Origin: an uncultured Verrucomicrobiota bacterium
GTDB lineage: Bacteria; Verrucomicrobiota; Kiritimatiellia; CAIQIC01; Lenti-01
Assembly: GCA_964647595.1 (NCBI GenBank)
Contig: CAZYGH010000016.1
Span: forward strand, 16,368-80,367
Direction of reading: 5' to 3'
DNA: 64,000 nt
In this document: positions 6,001 through 19,647 of the stretch, piece after piece
Layout of the letters: every line of letters begins with the position of its first letter
How positions within the stretch are numbered: position 1 is the first letter of the stretch
Program-made: the position numbers and the translations under genes
Notes under the pieces: model-generated
Seen by the model: the letters and a program-made list of their open reading frames with translations, nothing else
Told to the model about the DNA's origin: nothing
The model's database searches: none

Positions 6001-6850
6001 TCGCTCTGGTTGACAGTCGCCGGAGAGAAGGCCACGGTCACCGTCGGTTGCACCACGATCAACGTGGCGGCTTCGCTCCACGCGCTGGTGGACTTGAAGC
6101 TATCGACCGCCCGAACGCGAAAATCAACGCTGGACGTCCAAGCGTTGGTTCGGGCGGGTTCCGCAAATGTCGTGGAGCTCCACGCTCCAGTTCCCGTATA
6201 GCGCCATTGATAGGTATAGGTGAAGGGGGATGTTCCATCGGTGACAACGGATTGCAAAACGCTGGACTCGCCGCGCAAGACGGTCGAAGGAGTAAATGAA
6301 AGCGAAGCGGCAATGGCAGAAGGCAACACGGTCAGAGTGGCGGGAGCGCTCCAATCGCTGGTCACGCTGTTGGCATCCACACTACGAACGCGAAAATCAA
6401 CCGTGGATTTCCACTTGTTGGTTTTCACTGGATCCGAATACGGCGCATTCGCCCAAGCGCTTGTAGCGTTGGCGCGCCATTGGTAAGTCAAGGTGAAGGG
6501 AGCCGTTCCGTTCGTCACAACTCCGCGCAACACGCTCTCCTGACTCTGCACGACCTCGGCCGGCGTGAACGACACCGAAGCCACCGGCTGCAGTACCGTC
6601 AACGTGGCTTCCGACCAAGCGCTGGTGGCACTCAGACTGTCCACCACGCGAACGCGGAAATCCACGCTGGATGTCCATCGATTGGTCCTCTCTGGCGTGT
6701 TCAAGGAAGTGGACGACCACGTTCCCGTTCCGGTTAGCCGCCACTGATACGTGTAGGTGTAGGGTCCGGTGCCATTCGCGGCGGTCGCCGCCATCACACT
6801 CGACTCACCGCGCACAACCGTGCTCGGCGAGAAGGAAAGGCTAACCGTTT
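1..6850. repeat. Intragenic tandem domain array: five type-A domains, then alternating B/A pairs (~532 bp period) with a 1596 bp super-period
   Basis: QW codons recur about every 266 bp. B-type domains at ~87, 619, 1152, 1682, 2215, 2748, 3281, 3811, 4347, 4875 and 5405. A 70 bp exact match links 1211-1280 and 2807-2876. Confidence 0.9.
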
Positions 6851-6956
6851 GTGCCAGTGCCGGAGAGGATACGGCAAGCGCTACACATACTAGCGCTAAG
6901 AAAAGCCCCAAACTCCAACGTCCTGTCCCACTTTGAACCCACTGACTATTTTTCAT
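1..6956 (-). CDS. Giant secreted Ig-like/PKD-like repeat surface protein (>=2318 aa, 3' end beyond the window edge; not in the ORF track)
   Basis: ATG at 6956 reads MKNSQWVQSGTGRWSLGLFLALVCVALAVSSPALA-QTVSLSFSP (signal peptide). The same frame reads ...TNVWGATVEYR at the left edge, and the ORF track lists no stop-terminated ORF in this frame. About 26 Ser/Thr/Val/Trp-rich domains of ~88 aa (motifs YQWR/YQWQKK, TNxW, V[DE][FY]RVR.VD, S.W...TLTV). Confidence 0.9.
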   Translation of the reverse strand, partial: MKNSQWVQSGTGRWSLGLFLALVCVALAVSSPALAQTVSLSFSPSTVVRGESSVMAATAANGTGPYTYTYQWRLTGTGTWSSTSLNTPERTNRWTSSVDFRVRVVDSLSATSAWSEATLTVLQPVASVSFTPAEVVQSQESVLRGVVTNGTAPFTLTYQWRANATSAWANAPYSDPVKTNKWKSTVDFRVRSVDANSVTSDWSAPATLTVLPSAIAASLSFTPSTVLRGESSVLQSVVTDGTSPFTYTYQWRYTGTGAWSSTTFAEPARTNAWTSSVDFRVRAVDSFKSTSAWSEAATLIVVQPTVTVAFSPATVNQSEPSVLSAVTTNGTGPYTYSYQWRLPGGATWSSAAFTDPERTNTWKSSVEFRARSVDANSVTSDWSEAALLTVLPSAISASLSFNPSNVIRSEESVLTASATNGMAPYTYTYQWRYSGTGTWSSTTLTDPVRTNRWSSSVDFRVRAVDAFSATSDWAEATLTVAQPVVTVSFSPTSVTQGQSSVVSATVTNAIGEATYQWQKKVGTVWTNVVETDSSITNIWPATVDYRARSVASGVTSEWSSAATLTVLPSSLSASLSFAPSNVLRGVESVLTAVATDGTAPYTYSYQWRWTGVTNWTAATFTTAETTYKWTSNIEFRVRAVDSFSATSEWSSVAALTVVQPVVTVGFTPTTVTQSQSSVVSASVTNAIGAVTYQWQKKVGASWTSVTETNSSITDVWPSTVEYRVRSVDENGTMSDWASATLIVLPSAISASLSFTPSTVLNGEQSVLAAVPTNGTAPYSYSYQWRWGSTGTWTSTTLNTPERTNRWTSSVDFRVRVVDTFNSTSAWAEASLTVLQPAVTVAFSPSVVTQSQVSVLTATSTNVLGSPTFQWQYKAGSIWTSITNVEDTITKVWPSTIEYRARSLDTNGLLSAWSDSATLTVMGSEIAATLSFDPTNVVRGVNSVMTAVPTNGTAPYTYAYQWRWSGITGEWASASYTTPIVTNAWASNVDYRVQVVDSFNSTSAWSAAATLQIRQPEVSLTFSPSVVTQSHSSVLSATVTNATAPVTYQWQRLMDGNWVNMAGTDSAITNVWATDVDYRARSIDANSVTSPWSGTATLTVLPSAIAMSLSFSPTNVLRGFESVLTSVASNGYGSYTYYHQWRYSPAGEWSAKSTIPAVFTNRWDGSVDYRVQAVDTFNSTSAWALASLSVVQPVLTVGFTPSVVTQSQVSVLSVSASNVTGAVTYEWSKKVGSVWTSVTNTESSITNVWPSTVDYRVRSVDENAVTSDWATATLTVMPSAIAAGLSFSPTSVVRGVESALTTVPTNGTAPYTYSYQWRWTDGSTNWLPHSSTSPVTTYAWSSNVDFRVRVVDSFKSTSSWTMATLTVLQPEVTVAFSPSTVTQSVSSVLAATVTNTTGSLTYQWQKKVGAVWTNVTDTGAAITNVWGSTIEYRARTIDSNNVTSEWSTAATLTVMPSIISAYVSFSPASMWRGSNSVMTTVVSNGTAPFRYIYESKLTGDVSWASSSYSNAVVTNLWQSSTDYRVKVIDSFNSTSAWSSVGTVTVIQPQVIASFSPATVTQRISSVVSAAVSFASLPVAYEWQRLVNGVWTNQPDTTSAITNTWPSDVDYRARTIDANNVTSEWSSAATLTVLPSAIAVQLAFAPTNVLRGLDSVLTAVATNGYGTYTYFQQWRYSPSGEWSARSEIDPIVTNRWDASVDYRVQAVDSFNSTSAWALASLTVVQPVLTVGFNPSTVTQSVASVLSVSASNVTGAVTYEWQKKVGSVWTSVTNTASAITNVWPETIEYRVRSTDDNSVTSDWASATLTVLPSAIAAGLSFSPTNVIRGVESTMTAVPTNGTAPYAYAYQWRWSDGATNWMSSSATSPVTTYAWASNVDFRVRVVDSFQSTSAWTMATLTVLQPEVTVAFSPSTVTQSVSSVLAAAVTNATGPLTYQWQKKVGATWTNVADTGAAITNVWGSTIEYRARTIDANSVTSEWSSAATLTVMPSIISASVSFSPTNVWNGSNSVLTAVVSNGTAPYSYSYEWKRTGDVEWSSSDYSDAVVTNVWAESVNYRVKVVDSFNSTSAWSSAATLGVVQPLVTASFSPSTVTQRMSSVVSASVQYASGTVAYEWQRLVDGVWTNQPDTTSAITNIWPFDVDYRARTIDANSVTSEWSAAATLTVMASEISVSVAFSPTNVLRGSNSVLTAVATNGYGTYTYFQQWRYSPGGEWSARSETDPVITNQWDGSVDYRVQAVDSFNSTSAWVQATLTVVQPVVTVAFTPSTVTQSVSSVLSASASNVSGSVTWQWQKKEGSVWTNVASSASAITNVWGATVEY

Positions 6957-7283: not shown

Positions 7284-8336
7284 CTACTTTCTAGCTTCAA
7301 CGTAAAGAGATGCAGTCGGCCTGGTTTTGTCGAAAATCTTTGTATTCCGCAGCGGTGGAGCGAAGCTTTGACCATAGCCCGAGCGAAATACTTCTCGAAA
7401 CCCGACCTCCAACAGGGCACGACTCATTTTTTCATAGCTCCACCAACTGATATGGCTGGAGGGGCCCTGCCGTTGCAAATCTGGATTGCACCGACTGGAG
7501 CAATAATTCAGCGCTTCATTCATCGGCAACGTCGAAAACAACTCGTCCACCTGTTCATCCCCGATCCGCTCGGTCGTGGAACTCACATGCAGAGTCGAGA
7601 CATGGCTGGCAAATCGCCACAAAAACAACTGCTGAATCGACGCTTGGTTTAAGGGCCTGTTGAACAAATGCTCAAAGTTGCCCGGACGAGAATAAAAATC
7701 TCGCCATGAATAGTAAGACCAATCGCGATCTTGATAGGCCCGATATTCCAGCAGGATATCGGGAGTCGACGTGCGAAAATAGCCGCCGGGCTTCAAAATC
7801 CGAAACGCCTCCAGCAACACGTGCCGAACGCCTTCGTCCGGCAAATGCGATAGCGCATGACCGGAATAGACCAACTCGGCGCTGTCGTTTCCAACCGGAA
7901 AGGGCTCCCTTCTCAGCAGGTCCACATCAATGAATCCCGCATCCGCCCTCAAGGGATCACCCCATCCCGCAGCTCGATCCACCGCCGTCCAATAGGGATG
8001 CCAGAATTTTCCTGGCGCCAGGTTGTAGAAGCGACGAAAGCGCAGGCTTTCCTCAGGATAGCGACCCTCATAGGCCGCCTGATCGTCGGGTTCCCCGTTT
8101 TCATTGATCACAACGAGCGGGGCCGCCTTTGGCTTGACCATTGGAGGCGGCTTCGAAGGCAAAATTGGGCGCGCCAAGTCCACAATACCTTCCGAGGAAT
8201 CAATTTTTCTCACCAGGTACTGCGGTCCCATCGGAAAACCGAACCCATACGGCAATAAGCCGGGCTGTCGGCAAACGATTCGGCAGGAAAGTGTTTGACT
8301 GTAGGTTTGTGATTCCATCTTGTGTGCGCTTCTCAA
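7284..8336 (-). CDS. Class I SAM-dependent methyltransferase (Methyltransf_11-like); start codon uncertain
   Basis: DLLRREPFPVGNDSAELVYSGHALSHL...LLEAFRILKPGGYFR is the typical motif II/III region of type-11 methyltransferases. Confidence 0.7.
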   Translation of the reverse strand: MRSAHKMESQTYSQTLSCRIVCRQPGLLPYGFGFPMGPQYLVRKIDSSEGIVDLARPILPSKPPPMVKPKAAPLVVINENGEPDDQAAYEGRYPEESLRFRRFYNLAPGKFWHPYWTAVDRAAGWGDPLRADAGFIDVDLLRREPFPVGNDSAELVYSGHALSHLPDEGVRHVLLEAFRILKPGGYFRTSTPDILLEYRAYQDRDWSYYSWRDFYSRPGNFEHLFNRPLNQASIQQLFLWRFASHVSTLHVSSTTERIGDEQVDELFSTLPMNEALNYCSSRCNPDLQRQGPSSHISWWSYEKMSRALLEVGFREVFRSGYGQSFAPPLRNTKIFDKTRPTASLYVEARK

Positions 8337-8397: not shown

Positions 8398-11300
8398 TTA
8401 TTCCGGTGGGGAGAACCAATTTGTGCCGTCGTGGGTTACCCAAATCGTGTAATAATTGGGTTGGCTCGGACTCAGCCCGGTGTGCTGGAAGACTTGATTT
8501 GTACCGCGATACAGCTCACTGCCGTCATTCGTTGTCGCCGGATAGGCGGAATCCGACGTGTGAAGCAAGACTTCAGACGACTGCATGCCGATGTTGGTGG
8601 GATTGATCCAGCGCAGATAGACGTTGTTGGTCAACGCCGTGGCCTGGAACCAAAATGCCTCATAGACACGATTCGTATAGACTCGTCCAAGCTGATTGTT
8701 ATCCAGCCGGATTTCCAGCATGGAGGGGCTACACACCGAATTGACATACGCGCGGAAGGTGTAGACCACCGCATTGGTGATCTGCGGGATATTCGCAAAC
8801 ACGACATTGGTCGCCTCGCCTATTCCCAGGATGCCCACCGTATTGGTCAAGTCCGACGCCTGCCCGCACGAGGCGGAGGTCGATCGGTTAAGCCAGCCCG
8901 ACAGCTTCACGGGTGCGGTACTGGCCGCCGTGCCGCGGTTGCTGACCGTCACCGTGGCTTGGAACGGCACATTCATCACCTGAATCCTAGACACCACCAG
9001 ATCCGGCAACGCCTCCGTTTCAATGGGCGTTCCCACTGCAAAAACGCCACCTTCATGTGCCCCGTCGACAGCCTGCACACCCCACACAAGCTGCGTGCCG
9101 GCCGGCAAATTCCGAAGCGTCCATTCGCGCCGATATTGTGCATTGCCCTTGGTTACGATCTTCCGCCGCCCCGTACTCAAGTCAGCGTGGGGACTCATCA
9201 CCGCCACCGGGTTGCTCGCCACTCCCACATACAAGTTATACGTCAGCGTGCTGGAAGGTGTGAAGTCGTCCGTGGCCGCACTCCAACTGAAAATCACCTC
9301 GTTGCCATTGGTCAATCGGGCGCTCAAGCCGCTAGGCGCACCCGGCGGTGCATTGGAAACGGGCGACAAATTTCGGAACACAGCGCTGGTGTAGCCGTTG
9401 GTGGCCAAACCGGAAACCGCCAAATCCAAATCGCCATCACGGTCGGCATCGGCCATGGCCATGCCCGAAATCCGCAAGCCGGGAATTTGCGTAGGCTGAA
9501 CGCCCAGCGTTCCATTGCGGTTGGTGTACACATTCACGGACCGCTTGTTGCTCTCGTTCTCGCCCGAGGTCACCAAATCTTGCCACCCGTTGTTGTCCAG
9601 GTCACCCCACTCGCAGTTTCCGAGCCACAGGGACGTCAGCACATCGGATGACCGGGTAAACAGCGTGGGGGTGCCCGTGAACCGATAAACTTCGCTAACC
9701 ATTCCGCTGTTACCATACCCGGTCTGCGCAAAATCAGGCCAGCCATCGTTGTTGTTATCGCCAAAGCTTAAACCGCCATAGGCCGACCCATTGACGCCTG
9801 CCAACGGATAATTCGTCAGCACACCCTCGATGTTCCGATACAAGCGCGCCGTCTTGCCCGTCCCCGTGTCGCCGGTCATGATCAGGGCCAGCCAGCCGCT
9901 CTTATCCATGTCCACCCATGAAATCTGCCCATTTTGCAGGGGGGCCAGATTGAAGTTCACCGATGTGAACCGCCGATTGCCATCGTTGCGATAGAGCTTG
10001 CTGACCGCCACTGTGCTTCCAAAGCCGGAGATGGCCAAATCCAAATCGCCATCGTTGTCGTAGTCGCCCCACGCCAATCCACCGCTGATGGTGCCCGTCA
10101 GGCTAACCGCCACCTCCACAAACGACCCGTCTTGCTGGTTGCGATAAATCTTGGTGACCGCCCCCGTTCCGCTCATGCCCGAAACCGCCAGATCAAGCCA
10201 GCCATCGTTGTCGCAATCGCCAAAGGCCATGTTTCCAGACTCCAGTCCAATCAGCCCCGCTTGCATATTGGTAAAAGCACCTCCACCCAGGTTCCGGTGA
10301 ATCTCGGTGAAGCGATTGGTTCCATCTGTGCCCAAAATCGCTAAGTCTAACAGTCCGTCGTTATCCACATCTCCCCATGCCAGAGAAGATCCCGCCAAGT
10401 CGCGGAAATTAGCGCGAGCGTTGATATACGGATTCGTTGCCGGACACGTTCCCTGAATGGCGAATTGATACAGTCCGTTCGTGTGATACGTATCGTCGCT
10501 GCCGATTTGCACCAACGCCCTTCGCGTATTCACCACGCTCGGGAAAAACTCGATTTCAAATTCAACCATCTCTCCCGGCTCGACAGAATCTACGGGTTGC
10601 TGCACCACCGTAAAATCGCTCGTGTGCTCGCCTGCGATGACCACCTGCGGCGTCCCCGTCAGCGTCAGCAAAAAACTTCCCGCATTGGTGATGGCAAATC
10701 GACGGCGCAGCGGCGTATTCCCATAGATTCCGAAGTCGGTACCCGTCGCCAGCGCCGGATTCGTGCTGCCATTGGCGATCCACGCCTTGTTGGTACCCAG
10801 TACCCGCATCTCCGATTGCAACCCATCGCCTCCCAACCAAAGCGCATACGGGTCGTCATCGGGATCATTGTTTTCCACAAAGAACAGCGTGCTGCGAATT
10901 CCCTTGGCCTGCGGATCAAAGCGAATTTCCAGCTCGGTCGATTCGCCCGGATTCACCACGGCGTTGGATGGCGCGGTGATCAATTCAAAATCATCCGCAT
11001 GTCCCCCCTGCGGCGAGACGCCGCTGATTTCCAGTGGCCCATCTCCCGCGTTGGAAAGCGTGAACACATGCGTCGTCACGCCCGTTCCCACGTGAACGCC
11101 ACCAAACCAAGCGCCGTTCTCCGCCGCCATATTCGGGTCGCCATTCACGATCACCTCGCCATTGGTGCCGATGATCTTCAGATCGGAAATCGGTAGACTC
11201 AAGGCGTTGATTCGCGTGGCCACAAACCGAACCCGTCGATCAATTTTGACCACCGGTCCCGACTCGGACGCATTCAAATCAAAGGCGATGTTGCTGACCG

Positions 11301-11832
11301 CCGAGCGCGAAAACCACGCGCCGGCCGCAGTTTTTCCCACATTGCTCACCACGCGCAGATTGCGCTGGGTGCCGCCGCCCGCATACAGCCCACCAGCCGA
11401 AATCGCCGAATTTGAACCCTCCTCCGCCGTATATCCCCGGCGCAGCGTAAAGCCATCCAGCACCCCGTTCGTCATATACACGCTACGAACCGCCGAGGTT
11501 CCAAGAAGCGATTCTTCCGAATGCGGCGCACCCTCAATCACCGTATAGCGAAGACCGTTCACGCTACGCAACGTAATGGGCCGCGTCAGACGCGCGCGCG
11601 CCGCAAGCCCCCCCGCCATCGCGCTCCCGCTTCGATACACGCCATTGGTCACCCAAATGGTTTCGCCGTTGGTCGCCGCGCTAATGGCCGCCGTCAAATT
11701 CGTCGCGGCCGTCTCCCACGTGCTATACGGCGCGGTATGCGATCCCCAGTGCGACACGTAATGCGTCACCCCGTTTGCCACCAATGGGCAAACGAGCAGA
11801 ATCAGGATCAGAATGACGTGTCTCCATCGCAT
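8398..11832 (-). CDS. Secreted multidomain FG-GAP/VCBS-repeat protein (N-terminal beta-helix-like segment, two ASH/choice-of-anchor-D-like Ig domains, FG-GAP propeller, FN3, CARDB-like, conserved C-terminal domain)
   Basis: Signal peptide MRWRHVILILILLVCPLVANG. Repeated WGDxDNDGxLDLA motifs; two I.GTN...I.NG...P...GT.FG domains; APGAPSGL...FSWSAATD (FN3); LPDLVV (CARDB-like). Confidence 0.85.
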   Translation of the reverse strand: MRWRHVILILILLVCPLVANGVTHYVSHWGSHTAPYSTWETAATNLTAAISAATNGETIWVTNGVYRSGSAMAGGLAARARLTRPITLRSVNGLRYTVIEGAPHSEESLLGTSAVRSVYMTNGVLDGFTLRRGYTAEEGSNSAISAGGLYAGGGTQRNLRVVSNVGKTAAGAWFSRSAVSNIAFDLNASESGPVVKIDRRVRFVATRINALSLPISDLKIIGTNGEVIVNGDPNMAAENGAWFGGVHVGTGVTTHVFTLSNAGDGPLEISGVSPQGGHADDFELITAPSNAVVNPGESTELEIRFDPQAKGIRSTLFFVENNDPDDDPYALWLGGDGLQSEMRVLGTNKAWIANGSTNPALATGTDFGIYGNTPLRRRFAITNAGSFLLTLTGTPQVVIAGEHTSDFTVVQQPVDSVEPGEMVEFEIEFFPSVVNTRRALVQIGSDDTYHTNGLYQFAIQGTCPATNPYINARANFRDLAGSSLAWGDVDNDGLLDLAILGTDGTNRFTEIHRNLGGGAFTNMQAGLIGLESGNMAFGDCDNDGWLDLAVSGMSGTGAVTKIYRNQQDGSFVEVAVSLTGTISGGLAWGDYDNDGDLDLAISGFGSTVAVSKLYRNDGNRRFTSVNFNLAPLQNGQISWVDMDKSGWLALIMTGDTGTGKTARLYRNIEGVLTNYPLAGVNGSAYGGLSFGDNNNDGWPDFAQTGYGNSGMVSEVYRFTGTPTLFTRSSDVLTSLWLGNCEWGDLDNNGWQDLVTSGENESNKRSVNVYTNRNGTLGVQPTQIPGLRISGMAMADADRDGDLDLAVSGLATNGYTSAVFRNLSPVSNAPPGAPSGLSARLTNGNEVIFSWSAATDDFTPSSTLTYNLYVGVASNPVAVMSPHADLSTGRRKIVTKGNAQYRREWTLRNLPAGTQLVWGVQAVDGAHEGGVFAVGTPIETEALPDLVVSRIQVMNVPFQATVTVSNRGTAASTAPVKLSGWLNRSTSASCGQASDLTNTVGILGIGEATNVVFANIPQITNAVVYTFRAYVNSVCSPSMLEIRLDNNQLGRVYTNRVYEAFWFQATALTNNVYLRWINPTNIGMQSSEVLLHTSDSAYPATTNDGSELYRGTNQVFQHTGLSPSQPNYYTIWVTHDGTNWFSPPE

Positions 11833-11839
11833 TCATTCC

Positions 11840-12349
11840 CTACGGTTCAGCGGTCTTCCTGCACTCCACCGACCACCACACATTCGTGCCCGTTGTAAAA
11901 TTCGTAATGACGATACCGATGCGATATTGATTGCTCACCCACGAAGACGTCCACACCGCTGTTTCCACGCCAACGGCGGTGGCCTGAATTTCGTTAACGA
12001 CCGTATACGTGTCCCACGCATCGTTCCATTTGGAACGAACGAGCTGCGCATCGGCGTCGCCGCCGTCGGTTTGCAGACGAACGGTTTCCAGTTCGCCCGT
12101 CCACCGGAAAGCCGGAGCCCACACCACGCGATTGGACTGCGCTCGGAAGTCCACCGTGCCCCCCACGCTGATGAGTTCCGAGGGCCACGTGGTATGCACC
12201 ACACCGCCCATCTCGATGCCCGTCACGCGAAGAGCCCCGATGTGGTTGGTGCCCAGCCCATCCTCCACCGCTGAGGCGTCCCACGCCCAAAGGCCCATCA
12301 TTCCCACAAGAATGCCTGCAAAAACGGCCAAATGGAGCGTGGGTTTCAT
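11840..12349 (-). CDS. Secreted hypothetical protein sharing its mature N-terminal motif with the upstream fibre protein
   Basis: Start refined to MKPTLHLAVFAGILVGMMGLWAWDASA at 12349. The mature chain starts AVEDGLGTNHIGALRV. 7 bp gap to the downstream gene. Confidence 0.8.
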   Translation of the reverse strand: MKPTLHLAVFAGILVGMMGLWAWDASAVEDGLGTNHIGALRVTGIEMGGVVHTTWPSELISVGGTVDFRAQSNRVVWAPAFRWTGELETVRLQTDGGDADAQLVRSKWNDAWDTYTVVNEIQATAVGVETAVWTSSWVSNQYRIGIVITNFTTGTNVWWSVECRKTAEP

Positions 12350-12375
12350 TCTGACTATTTTCAATTCTCTTTTCC

Positions 12376-15300
12376 TTACGGGGCTGGCACCGTGCGGAAC
12401 ATTTCGCGCCACGCCGAGCCATCGTAGAGGAACTGAATGATGTGCCCGCTCTTCAATGTGAACGAAATGCCGCCCGCCAACACGAGACCCGTGCCATCGT
12501 CCAGTTTCAGCGTGTTGGTGTTATCCGTGCCCTGCAACGTCAACATCTGCCCAGGCGAGCCAGCCGCAATCTGCGGATTGGCGGAAATATCGACGGCGCC
12601 ACTATTGCCCCGCACCTTCAGATACGACCGCTGAATATGCGTTGCGGTGAGGCCCGTGCCCGCCGCAATCTGCGTTTCATCCGACGGCGTCGTGACCACA
12701 GCACCCGCAAACGTCACTTTGGCCGTGACGGACATCGTGTCCACCGCAATATCATTGCCCAGCACCATATTTCCACCCACGGTCAGATTTCCGGCCGCAT
12801 CCACGTTGCCGCCGGCATTCACATTCCCTTCGACGCCCACGCCGCCTTCCAGCACTAGCGCGCCCGTATCCTTGTTCGTCGAGGCCGTCGTGGAGGCAAT
12901 CGCCACCGCACCCGTCACCCCGAGTGCGCCGCCCACTTGGAGGTTCTTCTCCACCCCCACGCCACCTTCTACAATCAGCGCTCCGGTATCCTTGTTGTCG
13001 GCCTGCGTCGTCGCCGCAACCGTCACCGCGCCGCTCGCTGTCAAGGTTCCACCGGCCGTCACGTTGCCAGACGCATCGGCCTTGAAAGAACCCGTGTTGG
13101 TCCAGGCCGATCCGTTCCAGCGCAACAAATCATTAGCCGCCGTACCTGCCGCCACCGAACTGCTCAGCTTGCTGTCCACATAGCCCATTGTGGCCGCGTG
13201 GGACGCATTGGTCGGTGTGGGAACCACCACGAAATCGCTAAATGTTTTGACGCCGGCAATGCTCTGAGCCCCATTGGTCCGGACCACCGAAGCATCCACC
13301 GCAATCGCATCCGCCGAGACCGTGATACCATCTCCCTGCCCGACCGCGATCGCCGCCGCGCCGCCACCCGTCAAACCCGCGCCCGCCGTGGTGGCCGCCA
13401 CGCGCAAATTGTTGGCCCCATCGCTTTCCAACCCGGTACCCGCCAAATCCGCCGCTTTGGCCTTCACTTCCAAGCCGACGATTTCGATACCATCGCCCGC
13501 CGTGTACGTGCCCGGCGAGGCAAACTGCGCAAAGGTGATATTTTGCGAACCCACCGCCGCCGTCGGCGACGTGCAAATCCACGCCGTCCCGCCATTGGCC
13601 GTACCTTGCGCGACGAAGACCGCCGCACCGACCAAATGCGCCGTGTTGGTCATGTCCGCCGCTCGCACCGGAGCTATGCCCGCGCCTTGAATCACATAAA
13701 GCCCATTGGCCGTCGCATCGGTTTGATTCTTGAGCAAGACGCGATCGCCCGCCAACAAGGCCACGCCATCCAATGTGTTGCCCGCGCTGACACCGGTCAA
13801 CGCAGCCACATTGCCCGTGCCTGCCGCCTTCACGGCTTGTTTCCACGACAACCCGTTAATCGCGCTATCCACATACAACTTGTTTGCCGCATCCGTGTTG
13901 GCCGTTGGTGTGCCCAGGCCCGTCACCCGGAAATTGCCCATCGCCAAATTCGTCGCCGCCGTGCCATTGAAGGTGATCGTGTCGCCGCTGGTGTCGCCCA
14001 GCACCACATTTCCCTGCACCGCCAAGTCGCCCGCATTGGTCTGCGCACCGGTCACATTTAATGTTCCCGCCACGCTGGCCTTCCCCTGCACCACCACGTC
14101 CGAGGTATTGGTCTGGATACCCGTCACTTTCAGAGTTCCGCCGACCGCCGTATTGCCCGTGGCATCCACCGTGAACGCGCTGGTGTTCGTCCACGCCGAT
14201 CCATTCCAACGCAGCGAATCATTCGCCGACGTACCGGCCGCCACCGAGCTACTCAGCTTGCCATCCACATAGCCCATCGTGGCCGCGTGCGACGCATTGG
14301 TGGGCGTCGGCACCACCACAAAATCCGTGAACGTTTTCACGCCGGCGATCGACTGCGCACCATTCGTGCGAACCACCGAAGCGTCCACCGTCACCGCGTC
14401 GCCCACCACGGCAATGCCGCTACCCGGATTCACCGCCAGCGCCGTGGCCCCGCCCCCCGTCAACCCGTCGCCCGCCGCCGTCGCCGCCACGCGAATATCA
14501 CCGCCGTTCACCTCCAGCCCCGATCCAACAAAATCAGCCGGATTCACCGAGAAGGTCAATCCGCTCAAGCTCATGCCATCTCCCGCCGCATACGTGCCCG
14601 GCGACGCAAACTGCGCAAATGTAATCGCGCCCGAGCCCACTGTTGCCGTCGGCGATGTGCAGACCCATGCCGTACCCGCATTGACTGTGCCTTGCGCCAC
14701 AAACACCGCCGCGCCCACCAAATGTGCGGTATTGGTCATATCGCTCGCCCGCACGGGAGCAATGCCGCCGCCCTGCACCACATAGATTCCGTTGTCGGCT
14801 GCCGTCGTCTGGCCCCGCAACAAAATGCGATCATTTGCCAACAGAGCCACGCCATCCAAGGTGTTGCCCGCGCTGGCCGATGTCAACGCCGCCACATTGC
14901 CCGTGCTCGCCACTCGAACGGCTTGCTTCCACGACAGCCCATTAATCGCGCTATCCACATACAACTTGGTCGCCGCATCCGCACTTGCCGTTGGCGCACC
15001 CAACCCCGTCACCCGGAAATTGCCCATCGCCAAATTCGTCGCCGCCGTGCCATTAAACGTGATCGTGTCGCCGCCGGAATCGCCCAGCACCACATTCCCC
15101 TGCATCGCCACATCGCCCACATTGGTCTGCGCGCCGGTCACCCGCATCGTACCCGCCACACTGGCTTTTCCTTCCACCACCACATCCGACGTGTTCGTCT
15201 GAATGCCCGTCACTTTCAGGTTGCCGCCCACCGACGTGTTGCCGGAAGCATCTACCGCAAGCCCGCTACTGTTGGTCCACGCCGTGCCCGTCCAGCGCAA

Positions 15301-15807
15301 TGTATCGTTGGCCGAAGCCCCCGCCGCCACCGAACTGCTCAATTTGCCATCCACATACGCCACCGAGGCCGCATGCGTACTGCTGGTCGACGTCGGCACC
15401 ACCACCTGATTGGTGAACGTGATCGGCCCGCCGAGCTGAAATGCGCCGGACGTTCGCACCACCGTGGCATCCACCGCCACGGCATCGGCCGTCACCGTGA
15501 CGCCATCGCCCGCCCCCACGGCCAATGCCGCCGAACCGCCACCAACCAAACCGTCGCCCGCCACCGCCACCGCGATTTTTCCGGTCGTCACGGCATTGCT
15601 TTGAATCATCGCCGTTGTGATCGACTGATTCGTCAGCGTGCTGGTGGAAATTTCCTGCCAGGTGCCAATCCTCTCGTTGTTGAGCAGGATCCCATCGTAC
15701 ACCTTCAGCGTACGCACATGGTTCGTGCCCAACCCATCTTCAACAGCCACCGCCTGCACCACCGCCAACAGCACATAGGTCAGCATCAGACTCAGCGTTT
15801 TTTTCAT
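12376..15807 (-). CDS. Secreted phage-tail-fibre-like / trimeric fibrous protein, Gly/Ala/Thr/Val-rich, with internal ~362 aa repeats
   Basis: Start refined to MKKTLSLMLTYVLLAVVQAVA (GAGGA RBS upstream). DAATKLYVD/HAATMGYVD neck-like motifs and SWKQAV...DGVALL..DR.LL..QT....NG.YV modules, which I recognise from phage fibre proteins (recall, not a search). Confidence 0.8.
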   Translation of the reverse strand: MKKTLSLMLTYVLLAVVQAVAVEDGLGTNHVRTLKVYDGILLNNERIGTWQEISTSTLTNQSITTAMIQSNAVTTGKIAVAVAGDGLVGGGSAALAVGAGDGVTVTADAVAVDATVVRTSGAFQLGGPITFTNQVVVPTSTSSTHAASVAYVDGKLSSSVAAGASANDTLRWTGTAWTNSSGLAVDASGNTSVGGNLKVTGIQTNTSDVVVEGKASVAGTMRVTGAQTNVGDVAMQGNVVLGDSGGDTITFNGTAATNLAMGNFRVTGLGAPTASADAATKLYVDSAINGLSWKQAVRVASTGNVAALTSASAGNTLDGVALLANDRILLRGQTTAADNGIYVVQGGGIAPVRASDMTNTAHLVGAAVFVAQGTVNAGTAWVCTSPTATVGSGAITFAQFASPGTYAAGDGMSLSGLTFSVNPADFVGSGLEVNGGDIRVAATAAGDGLTGGGATALAVNPGSGIAVVGDAVTVDASVVRTNGAQSIAGVKTFTDFVVVPTPTNASHAATMGYVDGKLSSSVAAGTSANDSLRWNGSAWTNTSAFTVDATGNTAVGGTLKVTGIQTNTSDVVVQGKASVAGTLNVTGAQTNAGDLAVQGNVVLGDTSGDTITFNGTAATNLAMGNFRVTGLGTPTANTDAANKLYVDSAINGLSWKQAVKAAGTGNVAALTGVSAGNTLDGVALLAGDRVLLKNQTDATANGLYVIQGAGIAPVRAADMTNTAHLVGAAVFVAQGTANGGTAWICTSPTAAVGSQNITFAQFASPGTYTAGDGIEIVGLEVKAKAADLAGTGLESDGANNLRVAATTAGAGLTGGGAAAIAVGQGDGITVSADAIAVDASVVRTNGAQSIAGVKTFSDFVVVPTPTNASHAATMGYVDSKLSSSVAAGTAANDLLRWNGSAWTNTGSFKADASGNVTAGGTLTASGAVTVAATTQADNKDTGALIVEGGVGVEKNLQVGGALGVTGAVAIASTTASTNKDTGALVLEGGVGVEGNVNAGGNVDAAGNLTVGGNMVLGNDIAVDTMSVTAKVTFAGAVVTTPSDETQIAAGTGLTATHIQRSYLKVRGNSGAVDISANPQIAAGSPGQMLTLQGTDNTNTLKLDDGTGLVLAGGISFTLKSGHIIQFLYDGSAWREMFRTVPAP
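13100..15357. repeat. Two tandem ~1086 bp (362 aa) repeats plus the start of a third within the fibre gene
   Basis: YVD[GS]KLSSSVAAG..AND.LRW recurs at ~15340, ~14255 and ~13165. ttaatcgcgctatccacatacaactt occurs at 14942 and 13856 (offset 1086). Confidence 0.9.
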
Positions 15808-15849
15808 GTTCAGTCCTCGTTGGTTTTTTGAAAGGGTTGTTTTCATACG

Positions 15850-16533
15850 TCAGTTGTCCCATCGGTTCTGGCTACGGTTGATCTCCACCCAGTTGAGGGT
15901 GCTGTCGTCATAAATAAATTGAATGGTGTCGAACGCCCCCAAATGGAACGGCTGGCCCAGCATCGTGCGAAGCCCCGTTCCGTTCACCAGCGCCACCTTG
16001 TACGAGTCCGACACTCCTTGAAGCGTCAACAACTGCCCGGGCGCGCCCGCCGCGATTTGCGGATCGCCCAACGTCACCGGCGTTGTCGCTCCCCTCACGC
16101 GGATATACGAACTCATCGGCTGAATGGTGCTGCCCACCACCAACAACAACTGATCATGCTTCGCAAGACTTTGCCGTCCCATCTGCACCAAATTCGTATT
16201 CACCAACGTGCCATCCACCACCAAATTGGAATGAACCTGCAAGCTGCCTTCCATGTACGCGCTACCCCACCCCGACGTGACAACCCCCGCCCCCGTCAGA
16301 TTCGTCCCGAACACCGCAAACCCGCCCACCTGCAAATCCGGGTCGGCCTTCGTCGCGCTTTGCCCAAGGGCCGAAAAGGCCGAAGCGGCAATAAACAACA
16401 TCACCCATGCGGCAGTTCTTGCCGCACGCGAAAATGAAAATCGAGGACGCTCGCGAGCAAGCGCGCCCTCAACATATTCCGCGGATGATGACCACGTTCT
16501 CAACACATATTCCTGCCGTCGAATAGGAAACAA
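15850..16533 (-). CDS. Hypothetical exported protein sharing its C-terminal domain with the fibre protein; start uncertain
   Basis: Hydrophobic segment AAWVMLFIAASAFSALG. The C-terminal SYIRVRG...PQIAAGAPGQLLTLQG...GTGL...IQFIYD...W.E..R matches the fibre protein C-terminus. Confidence 0.75.
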   Translation of the reverse strand: MFPIRRQEYVLRTWSSSAEYVEGALARERPRFSFSRAARTAAWVMLFIAASAFSALGQSATKADPDLQVGGFAVFGTNLTGAGVVTSGWGSAYMEGSLQVHSNLVVDGTLVNTNLVQMGRQSLAKHDQLLLVVGSTIQPMSSYIRVRGATTPVTLGDPQIAAGAPGQLLTLQGVSDSYKVALVNGTGLRTMLGQPFHLGAFDTIQFIYDDSTLNWVEINRSQNRWDN

Positions 16534-17828: not shown

Positions 17829-18099
17829 TCTTGCAAAACTCCACAGAATACGGCCGGGATGGAACCCGGCCCTCCAGACAAGCGCCAACATGCACCGTCT
17901 TTTCCTCTGGAGGGACGACCTCCGCGTCGTCCGGGTTCGTCTTGAAAGTTCCCCTCGGATAGTTTGGACACAACCTTAAGGCCTTTTTTGATAATTTAGA
18001 AAAATATACCCCCTTTACAAATAGAAGGACAGGGTCTAGCGTTGACTCGCAGGATGGATGTGCAGGAGAGCGTGAATGGTCGAATCCGGACAACAGGGT

Positions 18100-19647
18100 A
18101 TGGCGCGACACACGGCCAGTTGGGCGGTGCGGCTCTGTGCGGGTTTCGCCCTGTGGATACTGGGGATTTCAACGGCTGTTGGACAAGATCCGCTCGATCT
18201 TTTTTCGCCCTCACCCGTCTCCCCTTCTGCACGTAAAACGACTGCCGCAACCGACACGCATCCGCTCGATATCCACTTTGAGGCGTTGCTTTCCGGTGCC
18301 GTTGTTTCCAACACGCTGATTCGGTGCGAGCCGGAACCCGGCATTTTTTTCACGGCCCGCGTCAGCCGCATCGAGACGGATGTCAACGGCACCCTCACGC
18401 TCTGGGCTCCGTTGGAGGGTCGCGAGTTCGCCCACTTTTCGTTGTCGGTGACCGAAAACCAAGCGCTGGGCGAAATTTTGTTGCCGGACGAGCAACGGCG
18501 TTATGTCATTCGCTTCGACGCCGCAAACAATCAAAACGTGGCGGGAACGTTGACGGATGAACAGGTCGATGAGCTTCCGTCCAGCCCCTCGATTGTGCCA
18601 CCCCTCCCCAGTCCCACTGTTTCCAACGCAAAAAAAACATCGCTACCCCTGTCGGATATCGCCAATGACGGCAACACCGTCATCGACCTGCTCATCGTGT
18701 ATACACCCGCCGCCGCCACGTGGGCGGGCGGCACGGCGGGCATCAACAACGTCATCGCCCAAGCCATGTCTCGTGCGCAAACGGCGATGGATAATTCCCA
18801 TATCGCCATCACGTTCCGTTTGGCTCATTCCACCCAAATTTCGTATACGGAAAGCGGCAGTTCCAACACCGATATCGATCGCCTGCAAAAAACCTCCGAC
18901 GGCCATATGGACAGTGTTCACACCTTGAGAAACCAGTACGGCGCCGACATTGTCACCCTCATGACCACCGCCAGCGACACCGGCGGGTTGGGCTATTTGC
19001 TGGACAGCACCAGCGGCATGCCCACCTATGCGTTCAATCTCACGCGTGTTCAACAATCTGCCACCAGCTATACGGTCATTCACGAAGTCGGTCACAACAT
19101 GGGCGCGCACCACCACAAAGCCCAAACGGTTCAGCCCGGCCCCGGCCTCTATAGCTATGCGGCGGGCTGGCGCTGGACCGGCACCAACGGCCTGCGCTAT
19201 TGCTCCGTGATGAGCTACGACAGCGGCACCTATTTTTCCGACGGCCTCACCCATACCCGCGTGGGCTATTTCTCCAACCCCAACGTGAATCATCAAGGCG
19301 TGAGTACCGGGGATGCAGCCAACGGCGACAACGCGCGCACTCTCAGCAATATCCGCGGCGTGGTTTCAGCCTACCGGGCCGCCGCCAGCCTGCCGTTTTG
19401 GTGCAGCGCCACTCCCCTGAACAATCAAATTCAGTTGCGCTGGGAAGATCCGCTGGAATGCGGTTTTTCCTCCAAGATCGTCCACATCCGAAGCGGTTCC
19501 ACCAATTATCCCGCCGCCACCAACCAAGGCACCTTTGTGTATCAGGGAACGGCCGATTCGTTCTTGCACACCAACCCGGTTTCCCGACAACCCAACTATT
19601 ACACCATTTGGCTTTCCAACGACGGCGCCACGTTCGTCGAACCTTGA
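18100..19647 (+). CDS. Secreted metzincin zinc metallopeptidase (reprolysin-like/M12B-M72 type) with conserved C-terminal domain
   Basis: HEVGHNMGAHH zinc motif, CSVMSY Met-turn, IDLLIVYTP and FSNP motifs. Signal peptide MARHTASW...ISTAVG (ATG 18100 preferred over 18076). Confidence 0.85.
   Translation: MARHTASWAVRLCAGFALWILGISTAVGQDPLDLFSPSPVSPSARKTTAATDTHPLDIHFEALLSGAVVSNTLIRCEPEPGIFFTARVSRIETDVNGTLTLWAPLEGREFAHFSLSVTENQALGEILLPDEQRRYVIRFDAANNQNVAGTLTDEQVDELPSSPSIVPPLPSPTVSNAKKTSLPLSDIANDGNTVIDLLIVYTPAAATWAGGTAGINNVIAQAMSRAQTAMDNSHIAITFRLAHSTQISYTESGSSNTDIDRLQKTSDGHMDSVHTLRNQYGADIVTLMTTASDTGGLGYLLDSTSGMPTYAFNLTRVQQSATSYTVIHEVGHNMGAHHHKAQTVQPGPGLYSYAAGWRWTGTNGLRYCSVMSYDSGTYFSDGLTHTRVGYFSNPNVNHQGVSTGDAANGDNARTLSNIRGVVSAYRAAASLPFWCSATPLNNQIQLRWEDPLECGFSSKIVHIRSGSTNYPAATNQGTFVYQGTADSFLHTNPVSRQPNYYTIWLSNDGATFVEP

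What the first reader, a model, noticed from the sequence alone, without database searches (positions are those of the whole stretch)
12242..15747. Identical 10-residue mature N-terminus AVEDGLGTNH in two adjacent, otherwise unrelated proteins
Seen: B reads A-VEDGLGTNHVRTLKVYDGILLNNERIGTW (15718-15747) and C reads A-VEDGLGTNHIGALRVTGIEMGGVVHTTW (12242-12271), both right after the predicted signal-peptidase site. The DNA differs at synonymous positions (gct gtt gaa gat ggg ttg vs gcg gtg gag gat ggg ctg), so the peptide appears to be under selection rather than recently duplicated. Inference: an N-terminal assembly, strand-donation or export tag, analogous to pilin N-terminal extensions or curli N22 targeting peptides.
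Basis: partly seen in the sequence, partly recalled or inferred. Interest (0 to 1): 0.65.

Follow-up and report, generated by a model that had tools for sequence, protein, structure and literature searches.

The report
N-terminal joint of a modular fibre
The ten shared residues start a conserved ~35-residue module that opens many secreted, phage-tail-fibre-like proteins of Kiritimatiellota-type bacteria. The module is almost always encoded directly after a gene ending in one particular beta-sandwich domain, so the proteins probably plug together end to end into a multi-protein surface fibre.

Summary
B (1143 aa, phage-fibre-like repeats) and C (169 aa, jelly-roll) both carry VEDGLGTNH directly after an AxA signal-peptidase site. 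The ten codons differ by six synonymous and no non-synonymous changes. Nothing else in the two proteins is alike.

The motif heads a ~35-residue N-module with no Pfam, NCBIfam or PDB match. It is conserved in all B and C homologues, in a third family (F), and in about 30 further protein clusters of 157-1244 aa. In every case it sits at the predicted mature residue +1.

The new finding is a synteny rule. For 36 of 38 N-modules, the gene immediately upstream ends in a ~110-residue beta-sandwich (Pfam PF25692, Phage_depo_C). B and the upstream gene D both have this domain. Operons read C-domain-only (D), then N-module plus C-domain (B), then N-module-only (C).

The best reading (about 0.55) is that the N-module docks on the C-domain of the preceding protein, giving an ordered base-shaft-tip fibre assembled after Sec export. 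The docking is inferred from gene order only. A single-chain AlphaFold test was inconclusive.

An export tag, a plain folding nucleus and a shared third-party anchor fit the data less well.

The parts
15850..16533 (-). Gene D, the 'base' protein. It has a signal peptide, a conserved ~100-aa N-terminal region (PDLQVGGF.VFGTN...) and the C-domain. It has no N-module. The exact start codon is uncertain (TTG 16533, GTG 16404 or ATG 16401).
15862..16158 (-). C-domain of D, a PF25692-like beta-sandwich. It ends 115 nt upstream of B's N-module.
   Evidence: Local HMM E 6.5e-40. BLASTP against the B C-terminus, E 1e-16. Spacing.
12376..15807 (-). Gene B, the 'shaft' protein of 1143 aa. It has phage head-decoration- and tail-fibre-like repeats and carries both the N-module and the C-domain.
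   Evidence: phrog_2647 at 3.5e-77 and other phage virion and fibre PHROGs. Pfam BppL_N..
15745..15807 (-). Sec signal peptide of B (21 aa, ending AVA before V).
   Evidence: Read from the sequence. AxA statistics over 68 relatives.
15640..15747 (-). N-module of B (A-VEDGLGTNHVRTLKVYDGILLNNERIGTWQEISTS). The finding's motif is its first 10 residues.
12382..12717 (-). C-domain of B (Pfam PF25692 Phage_depo_C: 28.6 bits against a cut-off of 25). It ends 111 nt upstream of C's N-module.
11840..12349 (-). Gene C, the 'tip' protein of 169 aa. It has a signal peptide, the N-module and a jelly-roll beta-sandwich, and no C-domain.
12164..12271 (-). N-module of C (A-VEDGLGTNHIGALRVTGIEMGGVVHTTWPSELISV).
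   Evidence: It is not packed in the AlphaFold monomer model (pLDDT below 50 for residues 25-37).
11855..12175 (-). Jelly-roll core of C (residues 59-165, pLDDT about 90).
   Evidence: Foldseek gives generic jelly-rolls: phage cement protein 7dou, CBMs, TNF/C1q and Ena 7a02, all at E about 1e-3 or weaker.
8398..11832 (-). Gene E, an FG-GAP/ASH-Ig protein of 1144 aa that starts 7 nt after C. It keeps this position after C in other genomes but has neither the N-module nor the C-domain. Its role in the fibre is unknown.
   Evidence: Pfam. (synteny in L001, L002, L019, L020, L029). (no module hit).

Best explanation
VEDGLGTNH is the free mature N-terminus of a ~35-residue N-module that acts as the 'plug' of a protein-protein joint. 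The 'socket' is the C-terminal beta-sandwich (PF25692-like C-domain) of the protein encoded immediately upstream. Each subunit is exported on its own by Sec and its signal peptide is cut at AxA, which exposes Val1. The subunits, probably trimers like phage fibres, then join head to tail in gene order. D is the base and has only a C-domain. B is the shaft and has both an N-module and a C-domain. C is the jelly-roll tip and has only an N-module. The two joints (D with B, and B with C) use old, distinct sub-types of both module and domain, which would fix the order and prevent B-B polymerisation. Shown here: the motif and module, their strict N-terminal position, their conservation, their spread over many protein architectures, and the gene-order rule. 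Inferred: physical docking, trimer state, extracellular or surface location, and the function of the whole fibre.
For: (1) The module is conserved and terminal. All 25 C homologues and 11 B homologues keep it directly after the signal peptide. A 36-position profile searched against 1.84e9 representative proteins finds about 32 clusters with the whole module, all at residues ~14-65 of proteins of 157-1244 aa, and never internal. The AxA site lies directly before +1 Val in 64 of 68 proteins. (2) Gene order. For 36 of 38 non-redundant N-modules whose upstream DNA is visible, a gene ending in the C-domain stops 83-437 nt upstream. Conversely, every C-domain gene with visible downstream DNA is followed by an N-module gene, except the solitary gene in L036/L037. 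An N-only gene is never followed by another N-module gene. Operons read C | N..C | N, or C | N, so the numbers of sockets and plugs are equal. (3) About 20 of 32 N-module clusters also end in the C-domain. Those that do not end in 'tip' domains instead (C jelly-roll or F domain). (4) The first genes (D, X) are exported fibre-like proteins that lack the module, which argues against an export tag or a general folding nucleus. (5) In the AlphaFold model of C the module is not part of the jelly-roll (pLDDT below 50). This fits an extension that needs a partner. (6) In the one phage that has the C-domain (MW202898), it ends a 305-aa protein whose first 129 residues are the usual podovirus tail-fibre anchor. 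A 917-aa C1q-like receptor-binding protein with no anchor of its own follows. In that phage the C-domain therefore sits where a docking platform is expected. (7) There is no gene conversion. Modules cluster by type across genomes, and the two window copies differ only synonymously within the motif.
Against: No direct evidence of binding exists. A single-chain AlphaFold 'read-through' construct (B-type C-domain, natural linker and signal peptide, then C; locus L029) folded both beta-sandwiches well. It left the module at pLDDT 53-59 and gave pTM 0.44, so no confident docking. PF25692 domains in phage depolymerases are not known as docking platforms. The phage protein downstream of the C-domain gene has no N-module by HMM. 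There are two exceptions to the gene-order rule: L024 (an unrelated gene upstream) and the solitary N+C gene in L036/L037. Gene adjacency alone cannot separate a linear chain from other kinds of co-function. How Sec-exported pieces would cross or attach to the outer membrane is unknown.
Confidence: 0.55

Rival explanations
1. Shared anchor (branch model). All N-module proteins bind one common base, either a cell-envelope component or only D's C-domain. B and C would then hang side by side, and B's own C-domain would be a free distal tip.
For: The first 9-10 residues are nearly identical in all families, as expected if they all fit one site. Bdellovibrio MAT fibres share a conserved domain right after the signal peptide that is presumed to bind a surface element (PMC10769870). 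Klebsiella phage secondary receptor-binding proteins use a conserved docking peptide on a branching domain (PMC6872550, PMC13352976).
Against: This model does not predict the strict alternation or the equal numbers of C-domains and N-modules. No operon of the form C-only, N-only, N-only was seen, and N-only genes are never followed by another N-module gene. The terminal genes lack the C-domain and the first genes lack the N-module.
Confidence: 0.15
2. Intrinsic structural cap or folding nucleus. The module is simply the first repeat unit of the fibre and starts trimerisation or caps the beta-structure, with no separate partner.
For: Profile positions ~13-36 match tandem repeats of the type LTNVxxITLGGExRTNWP in large fibrous proteins of other phyla, for example P0047 with 46 stretches and P0048-50 and P0065. 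The second half of the module is therefore an ordinary fibre repeat unit. AlphaFold models it as two short beta-hairpins.
Against: C has no fibre shaft yet keeps the module. D and X are fibre-like but lack it. The most conserved part (VEDGLGTN) is not part of the widespread repeat. This model does not explain the gene-order rule.
Confidence: 0.12
3. Export, sorting or processing tag. The new N-terminus would be recognised by an outer-membrane translocation or attachment system, or by the neighbouring M12 protease.
For: The exact placement at residue +1 in all 68 proteins would suit recognition of a free N-terminus. An M12-type metalloprotease and an FG-GAP protein are conserved nearby.
Against: D and X are co-exported members of the same operons and lack the tag. 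No dedicated secretion genes are seen in the operon. All known bacterial surface sorting signals of this type are C-terminal (own knowledge). The rule tying the module to an upstream C-domain is not expected for a tag.
Confidence: 0.08

Closest known systems
Serial joints of phage long tail fibres (T4 gp34-gp35-gp36-gp37, with the gp38-type tip adhesin of T2/S16-like phages); own knowledge
   Same: Several fibre proteins encoded by adjacent genes join end to end in gene order. A small distal protein binds the C-terminal end of the long fibre protein. The domains of B, D and C are phage-fibre-like.
   Different: Here every piece has a Sec signal peptide and the locus is cellular, with no other phage genes in the window. 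The joint uses one reusable pair (N-module and PF25692-like domain) at every junction. No sequence similarity to the T4 proteins was found or tested.
Anchor-branch receptor-binding proteins of Klebsiella podophages: a conserved N-terminal docking peptide of RBP2 binds the branching domain of RBP1 (PMC6872550; PMC13352976)
   Same: A short conserved N-terminal peptide is shared by otherwise unrelated fibre or spike proteins. It serves to dock them on a domain of the protein encoded just upstream.
   Different: The socket there is a T4gp10-like branching domain, not PF25692. Assembly there is cytoplasmic and on a virion. There is no sequence relation, and no N-module was found in IMG/VR.
Bdellovibrio MAT (mosaic adhesive trimer) fibres (PMC10769870)
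   Same: They are cell-encoded, signal-peptide-bearing, phage-tail-fibre-like trimers on a bacterial surface. They have a conserved element directly after the signal peptide and swappable beta-sandwich tips. The Bd2133 fibre tip (8ond) appears among the weak fold matches.
   Different: The MAT N-terminal element is a ~130-aa beta-rich domain on single-chain fibres. Here it is a ~35-aa module tied to a C-terminal domain of a second protein, which implies multi-protein fibres. Homology was not tested directly.
N-terminal extensions of polymerising subunits: the chaperone-usher Nte donor strand and the Bacillus Ena N-terminal connector
   Same: A short extension at the mature N-terminus of a beta-sandwich subunit links it to the neighbouring subunit. 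The Ena jelly-roll (7a02) is among the weak fold matches to C.
   Different: No chaperone or usher genes are present. C's fold is modelled as complete without the module. The module has no Cys. The units are heterologous and ordered, not a homopolymer.

Membership tests
Pfam PF25692 Phage_depo_C (for the C-domain of B and D) | Score above the Pfam gathering threshold of 25 bits | tested here: met
   B's last 135 aa score 28.6 bits, E 2e-6. 16 of 21 C-domains from B, D, X and N+C proteins match at E up to 0.01. Full-length D and X alone are below the cut-off.
Any curated family for the N-module (Pfam, NCBIfam, PHROGs, PDB sequences) | A significant match over residues ~22-60 of B or ~28-62 of C | tested here: not met
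   No Pfam, NCBIfam or PHROG hit covers the module. The profile against PDB sequences gives a best E of 0.031, on an unrelated LRR protein.
Chaperone-usher or donor-strand pilins | An incomplete Ig-like fold that needs a donated strand, with chaperone and usher genes in the operon | tested here: not met
   The C core is modelled as a complete jelly-roll at pLDDT ~90 without the module. Operon neighbours are an FG-GAP protein, a methyltransferase and a CDF transporter, with no PapD or usher Pfam hits.
Type IV pilin-like N-termini | A prepilin peptidase site (G|F/M...E5) followed by a hydrophobic helix | tested here: not met
   The site is a signal peptidase I AxA site, and the mature start VEDGLGTN is polar.
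Curli-type N22 targeting | CsgG/E/F-type secretion partners and a Q/N-rich amyloid repeat core | tested here: not met
   No such Pfam hits were found among the seven neighbouring proteins scanned. B and C have no amyloid repeats.
Bdellovibrio MAT fibre family | A conserved ~130-aa beta-rich domain after the signal peptide, with or without a Peptidase_S74 C-terminus | not tested
   No MAT sequence was compared. B, C and D have no S74 hit, and the module is only ~35 aa.
Phage tail-fibre-like proteins (for B) | Homology to virion fibre or decoration protein families | tested here: met
   phrog_2647 at 3.5e-77, phrog_11518 tail fibre at 2.4e-13, and Pfam BppL_N at 38 bits against a cut-off of 25.8. 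The context is nevertheless cellular and the proteins carry signal peptides.

The most novel reading that the evidence does not exclude
PVC-type bacteria (Kiritimatiellota and relatives, plus at least one 31% G+C lineage) build a previously undescribed kind of surface appendage. It would be a multi-protein, phage-fibre-derived filament whose subunits are exported separately by Sec. The subunits would then self-order outside the cytoplasm through a reusable plug-and-socket code. The plug is the free N-terminus VEDGLGTN, and it would insert into the PF25692 beta-sandwich of the previous subunit. Base, extender and tip modules could be swapped like building blocks.
Probability: 0.35. Interest if true: 0.8.

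Novelty: new variant of a known kind. Interest (0 to 1): 0.62.

Why it matters
If the joint is real, it defines a simple, portable rule for ordered assembly of heteromeric fibres after secretion: a ~35-residue plug and a ~110-residue socket. It would assign a function to a Pfam domain (PF25692) that is so far only a structural label. It would give a handle on uncharacterised surface structures in Kiritimatiellota, a little-studied group known for polysaccharide degradation. It would also extend the theme of cell-encoded phage-like fibres (Bdellovibrio MAT proteins) to multi-protein assemblies. The plug-socket pair could serve as a protein-engineering connector.

Tried and rejected
The rest of the genome could not be scanned for further copies, and no whole-genome co-occurrence test with an outer-membrane channel was possible.

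(2) AlphaFold docking test. A natural in-frame read-through of L029 (B C-domain, TAA read as Gly, signal peptide, then C) was folded with a block alignment. Both domains folded, but the module stayed at pLDDT 53-59 and pTM was 0.44. The result is inconclusive, and no coordinates or PAE were available.

(3) IMG/VR scan for the module found no relatives. A profile search of PDB sequences found nothing for the module or the C-domain.

(4) tblastn of an X-type C-domain against phages found no match. The B-type C-domain gave one phage hit, and the protein downstream of that hit has no N-module by HMM.

(5) I considered recent duplication or gene conversion between B and C. It is rejected, because modules cluster by type across genomes and the window copies differ synonymously.

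(6) I considered that C is a copy of a domain of the giant repeat protein at 3-6956. This was not pursued, and no similarity was evident on reading.

(7) Three of the 16 genome-collection hits (Microbacterium, Spirochaetaceae, Saccharofermentans) are internal and not preceded by a signal peptide. They match my estimate of about 4 chance hits and were discarded.

(8) I considered that L033 might be a phage. Nine of the ten neighbouring proteins scanned have no PHROG hit, and the tenth has only weak DNA-binding or regulator matches (E ~3e-4).
Full report
**Observation.** The window carries a minus-strand run of tightly spaced genes. D is at 15850-16533, B at 12376-15807, C at 11840-12349 and E at 8398-11832. 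B and C both start with a Sec-type signal peptide ending in AxA (AVA and ASA), followed by VEDGLGTNH. The back-translated motif occurs only at these two places in 64 kb, and none was expected from shuffles. BLASTP finds no other similarity between B and C. Across the ten codons there are six synonymous and no non-synonymous differences. The only correction is that the similarity continues, more weakly, for about 30-36 residues up to a conserved Trp.

**What the proteins are.** B is built from phage head-decoration- and tail-fibre-like repeats (phrog_2647 at 3.5e-77, a tail-fibre PHROG, and Pfam BppL_N). C has no family match. AlphaFold with 25 homologues gives a confident jelly-roll for residues 59-165 (pLDDT about 90), while residues 25-37, which include the motif, are below 50 and unpacked. 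Foldseek finds only generic jelly-rolls: a phage cement protein, CBMs, TNF/C1q and Ena, all at E about 1e-3 or weaker. D shares its last ~100 residues with the C-terminus of B (E 1e-16). This C-domain belongs to Pfam PF25692, Phage_depo_C. B's last 135 aa score 28.6 bits against a cut-off of 25, and 16 of 21 such domains match. E is an FG-GAP/ASH protein. No phage genes were recognised around the operon. The neighbours include prfB, lnt and a CDF transporter, identified from the ORF translations.

**Conservation and position of the motif.**
- All 25 C homologues (about 169 aa, down to 46% identity) keep A-VEDG[LQM]GTN[HYV] directly after the signal peptide. G31, G33, T34 and N35 are invariant, against a mean column identity of 66%.
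- All 11 B homologues keep AVEDGLGTNHVR.L[KR]. One is labelled Kiritimatiellae bacterium.
- A scan of one genome per prokaryotic species with the 27-nt degenerate pattern gave 16 loci. Thirteen come from Kiritimatiellae, Verrucomicrobiota or Victivallales MAGs or an unclassified MAG ('bacterium'), and in all of them the motif follows a signal peptide. Three are internal chance hits, close to my estimate of about four.
- This scan revealed a third family, F (~260 aa: coiled-coil repeats plus a head-decoration-like end), with the same start.
- A 36-position profile of the module (A2) was searched against 1.84e9 representative proteins and gave 85 hits. About 32 contain the whole module, always at residues ~14-65, in proteins of 157-1244 aa with varied architecture.
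- The remaining hits are multi-stretch matches of profile positions ~13-36 to tandem repeats of the type LTNVxxITLGGExRTNWP in very large fibrous proteins of other organisms. The second half of the module is therefore an ordinary fibre repeat unit. The first 9-10 residues are what is special.
- In 68 module-bearing proteins, position -1 is Ala in 64, position -3 is Ala in 49, and +1 is Val in 61. The module always begins at the predicted mature residue 1 and was never found internally.
- No Pfam, NCBIfam, PHROG or PDB sequence matches it. It was not found in IMG/VR.

**The gene-order rule.** I built local HMMs of the N-module and the C-domain and scanned the six-frame translations of all loci fetched.
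- For 36 of 38 non-redundant N-modules with visible upstream DNA, a gene ending in the C-domain stops 83-437 nt upstream.
- Conversely, every C-domain gene with visible downstream DNA is followed by an N-module gene, except the solitary gene in L036/L037.
- The usual operon is a triad. The first gene has only the C-domain (D, or a 400-450-aa X protein). The second has both N-module and C-domain (B-like, 230-1244 aa). The third has only the N-module (C jelly-roll or F).
- Dyads of the form X then F also occur. The same grammar appears in a 31% G+C contig (L033).
- No N-only gene is followed by another N-module gene, so sockets and plugs are equal in number.
- About 20 of the 32 module clusters also end in the C-domain.
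- The exceptions are L024, where an unrelated gene lies upstream, and a solitary N+C gene in L036/L037.
- Modules fall into old types. B-type modules are 67% identical across genomes but only 40-46% identical to the C-type module of the same genome. The D-type and B-type C-domains likewise form separate groups.

**Interpretation.** The simplest account is a plug-and-socket joint. After Sec export and cleavage, the free N-terminal module of each protein docks on the C-terminal beta-sandwich of the protein encoded before it. This gives an ordered fibre of D (base), B (shaft) and C (tip).

This account explains four things:
- why first genes lack the module although they are exported;
- why last genes lack the C-domain;
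- why the module is never internal;
- why it is unpacked in the monomer model of C.

One phage supports the socket idea. In MW202898 a 305-aa tail fibre protein consists of the common podovirus anchor domain (residues 1-129, shared with Pelagibacter, Ralstonia and Pseudomonas podophages) plus the C-domain (1.7e-19 with the local HMM). A 917-aa C1q-like receptor-binding protein without an anchor of its own follows. That downstream protein has no N-module by HMM, so the parallel is partial.

**Direct test attempted.** In L029 the B-type gene and the C gene are in the same frame, separated by a single TAA. I folded the read-through (C-domain, natural linker and signal peptide, then C) with a block alignment of 38 rows. 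Both sandwiches folded (pLDDT 84-92 and about 90). The module formed two short hairpins (ASVE/TNHV around a DGLG turn) but stayed at pLDDT 53-59, and pTM was 0.44. Docking is therefore neither shown nor excluded. Monomer modelling of what are probably trimers, with no access to coordinates, is a weak test. Against predicted viral structures the model matches collagen/C1q-type and tail-fibre tip domains (64 hits at E up to 1e-3). Against the PDB it gives only weak hits, including the Bdellovibrio Bd2133 fibre and a tailspike depolymerase.

**Rivals.**
- A common anchor (branch model) fits the near-identity of the first ten residues. It does not predict the alternation or the equal counts.
- A mere structural cap fits the repeat-like second half. 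It does not fit C, which has no shaft, or D and X, which lack the module.
- An export or sorting tag is contradicted by the exported D and X proteins without it, and by the absence of dedicated secretion genes in the operons seen.
- Chaperone-usher-type strand donation, type IV pilin and curli N22 readings fail their defining features (see the membership table).

**Comparison with known systems.** By mechanism, the nearest systems are the serial joints of T4-type long tail fibres and the conserved docking peptide and branching domain of Klebsiella podophage receptor-binding proteins (PMC6872550, PMC13352976). By setting, the nearest are the Bdellovibrio MAT fibres. These are cell-encoded and signal-peptide-bearing, have a conserved element directly after the signal peptide, and have swappable tips (PMC10769870). 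The difference here is one reusable N-module/PF25692 pair at every junction of a multi-protein, Sec-exported, cellular fibre. I found no description of this and no curated family for the module. I rate it a new variant of a known kind.

**Limits.** Binding, oligomeric state, cellular location and biological role of the fibre are all inferred.

Noticed in passing
window 8398-8650 (-) and 19400-19647 (+): The FG-GAP protein E and the M12/reprolysin-like metalloprotease (18076-19647) end in a similar ~75-aa stretch (...LRW.P......S.V......S..YPATTN.G...Y.GT......HT......PNYYTIW...DG..F..P). Similar protease and FG-GAP genes lie near the D-B-C operon in L019 and L029.
   Followed up: partly
window 15846-15852 (-): D's stop codon (TGA) is followed by one codon and then an in-frame ATG that opens the long B reading frame, so D and B share a frame. 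This arrangement is not conserved in L006, so it is probably coincidence.
   Followed up: partly
L019 5699-8055 and L021 5761-7982: Directly upstream of D in two related contigs lie genes whose products read like PseB/FlaA1-type dehydratase and PseC-type aminotransferase, enzymes of nonulosonic-acid sugar synthesis. This hints that the fibre proteins may be glycosylated. The window instead has a SAM-methyltransferase-like ORF (7284-8336) after E.
   Followed up: no
proteins P0047-P0050, P0054, P0065: Very large proteins from other organisms, for example P0047 (4617 aa, 46 matched stretches), consist of tandem ~32-aa units of the type ...NWS.Y.A...VD.....LTNV..ITLGGE.RTNWP. No Pfam family covers them. 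The second half of the N-module is one such unit.
   Followed up: partly
L036 10001-10963 and L037 1242-2204: A 320-aa protein with both N-module and C-domain stands alone, between a phosphoketolase gene and a histidine-kinase gene. It has no C-only or N-only partner nearby. It may self-associate, or its partners may be encoded elsewhere.
   Followed up: partly
L033 8283-10743: The same C | N+C | N triad occurs on a 31% G+C contig full of unannotated small genes, with essentially no PHROG hits. The system is therefore not confined to high-G+C Kiritimatiellota-like genomes.
   Followed up: partly
L030 (phage MW202898) 4368-7998: A podovirus tail fibre protein consists of the standard N-terminal anchor plus the PF25692-like C-domain. 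A 917-aa C1q-like protein follows, whose N-terminus has a hydrophobic, signal-peptide-like stretch (MFNKILIAIVFIITCLNAF-SDGNTS...). That is odd for a virion protein.
   Followed up: partly
L004 958-3686 and L017 3147-6990: In two MAG contigs the B-type gene is split into two overlapping reading frames, with the N-module part and the C-domain part separated. This is either a frameshift or pseudogene, or an assembly error.
   Followed up: no
L007 2469-5876, L013 2715-3950, L015 1-512: X-F dyads are followed by a ~1135-aa protein with a long Ala/Lys/Glu-rich, coiled-coil-like region and a C-terminus ending ...GGTVGLHF. That ending resembles an outer-membrane beta-barrel signature, so this protein is a possible envelope anchor for that fibre type.
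   Followed up: no
window 3-6956 (-): A giant exported protein of at least 2318 aa is made of ~90-aa Ig-like repeats of two alternating types. It runs off the window edge and lies on the same strand, downstream of the fibre operon.
   Followed up: no
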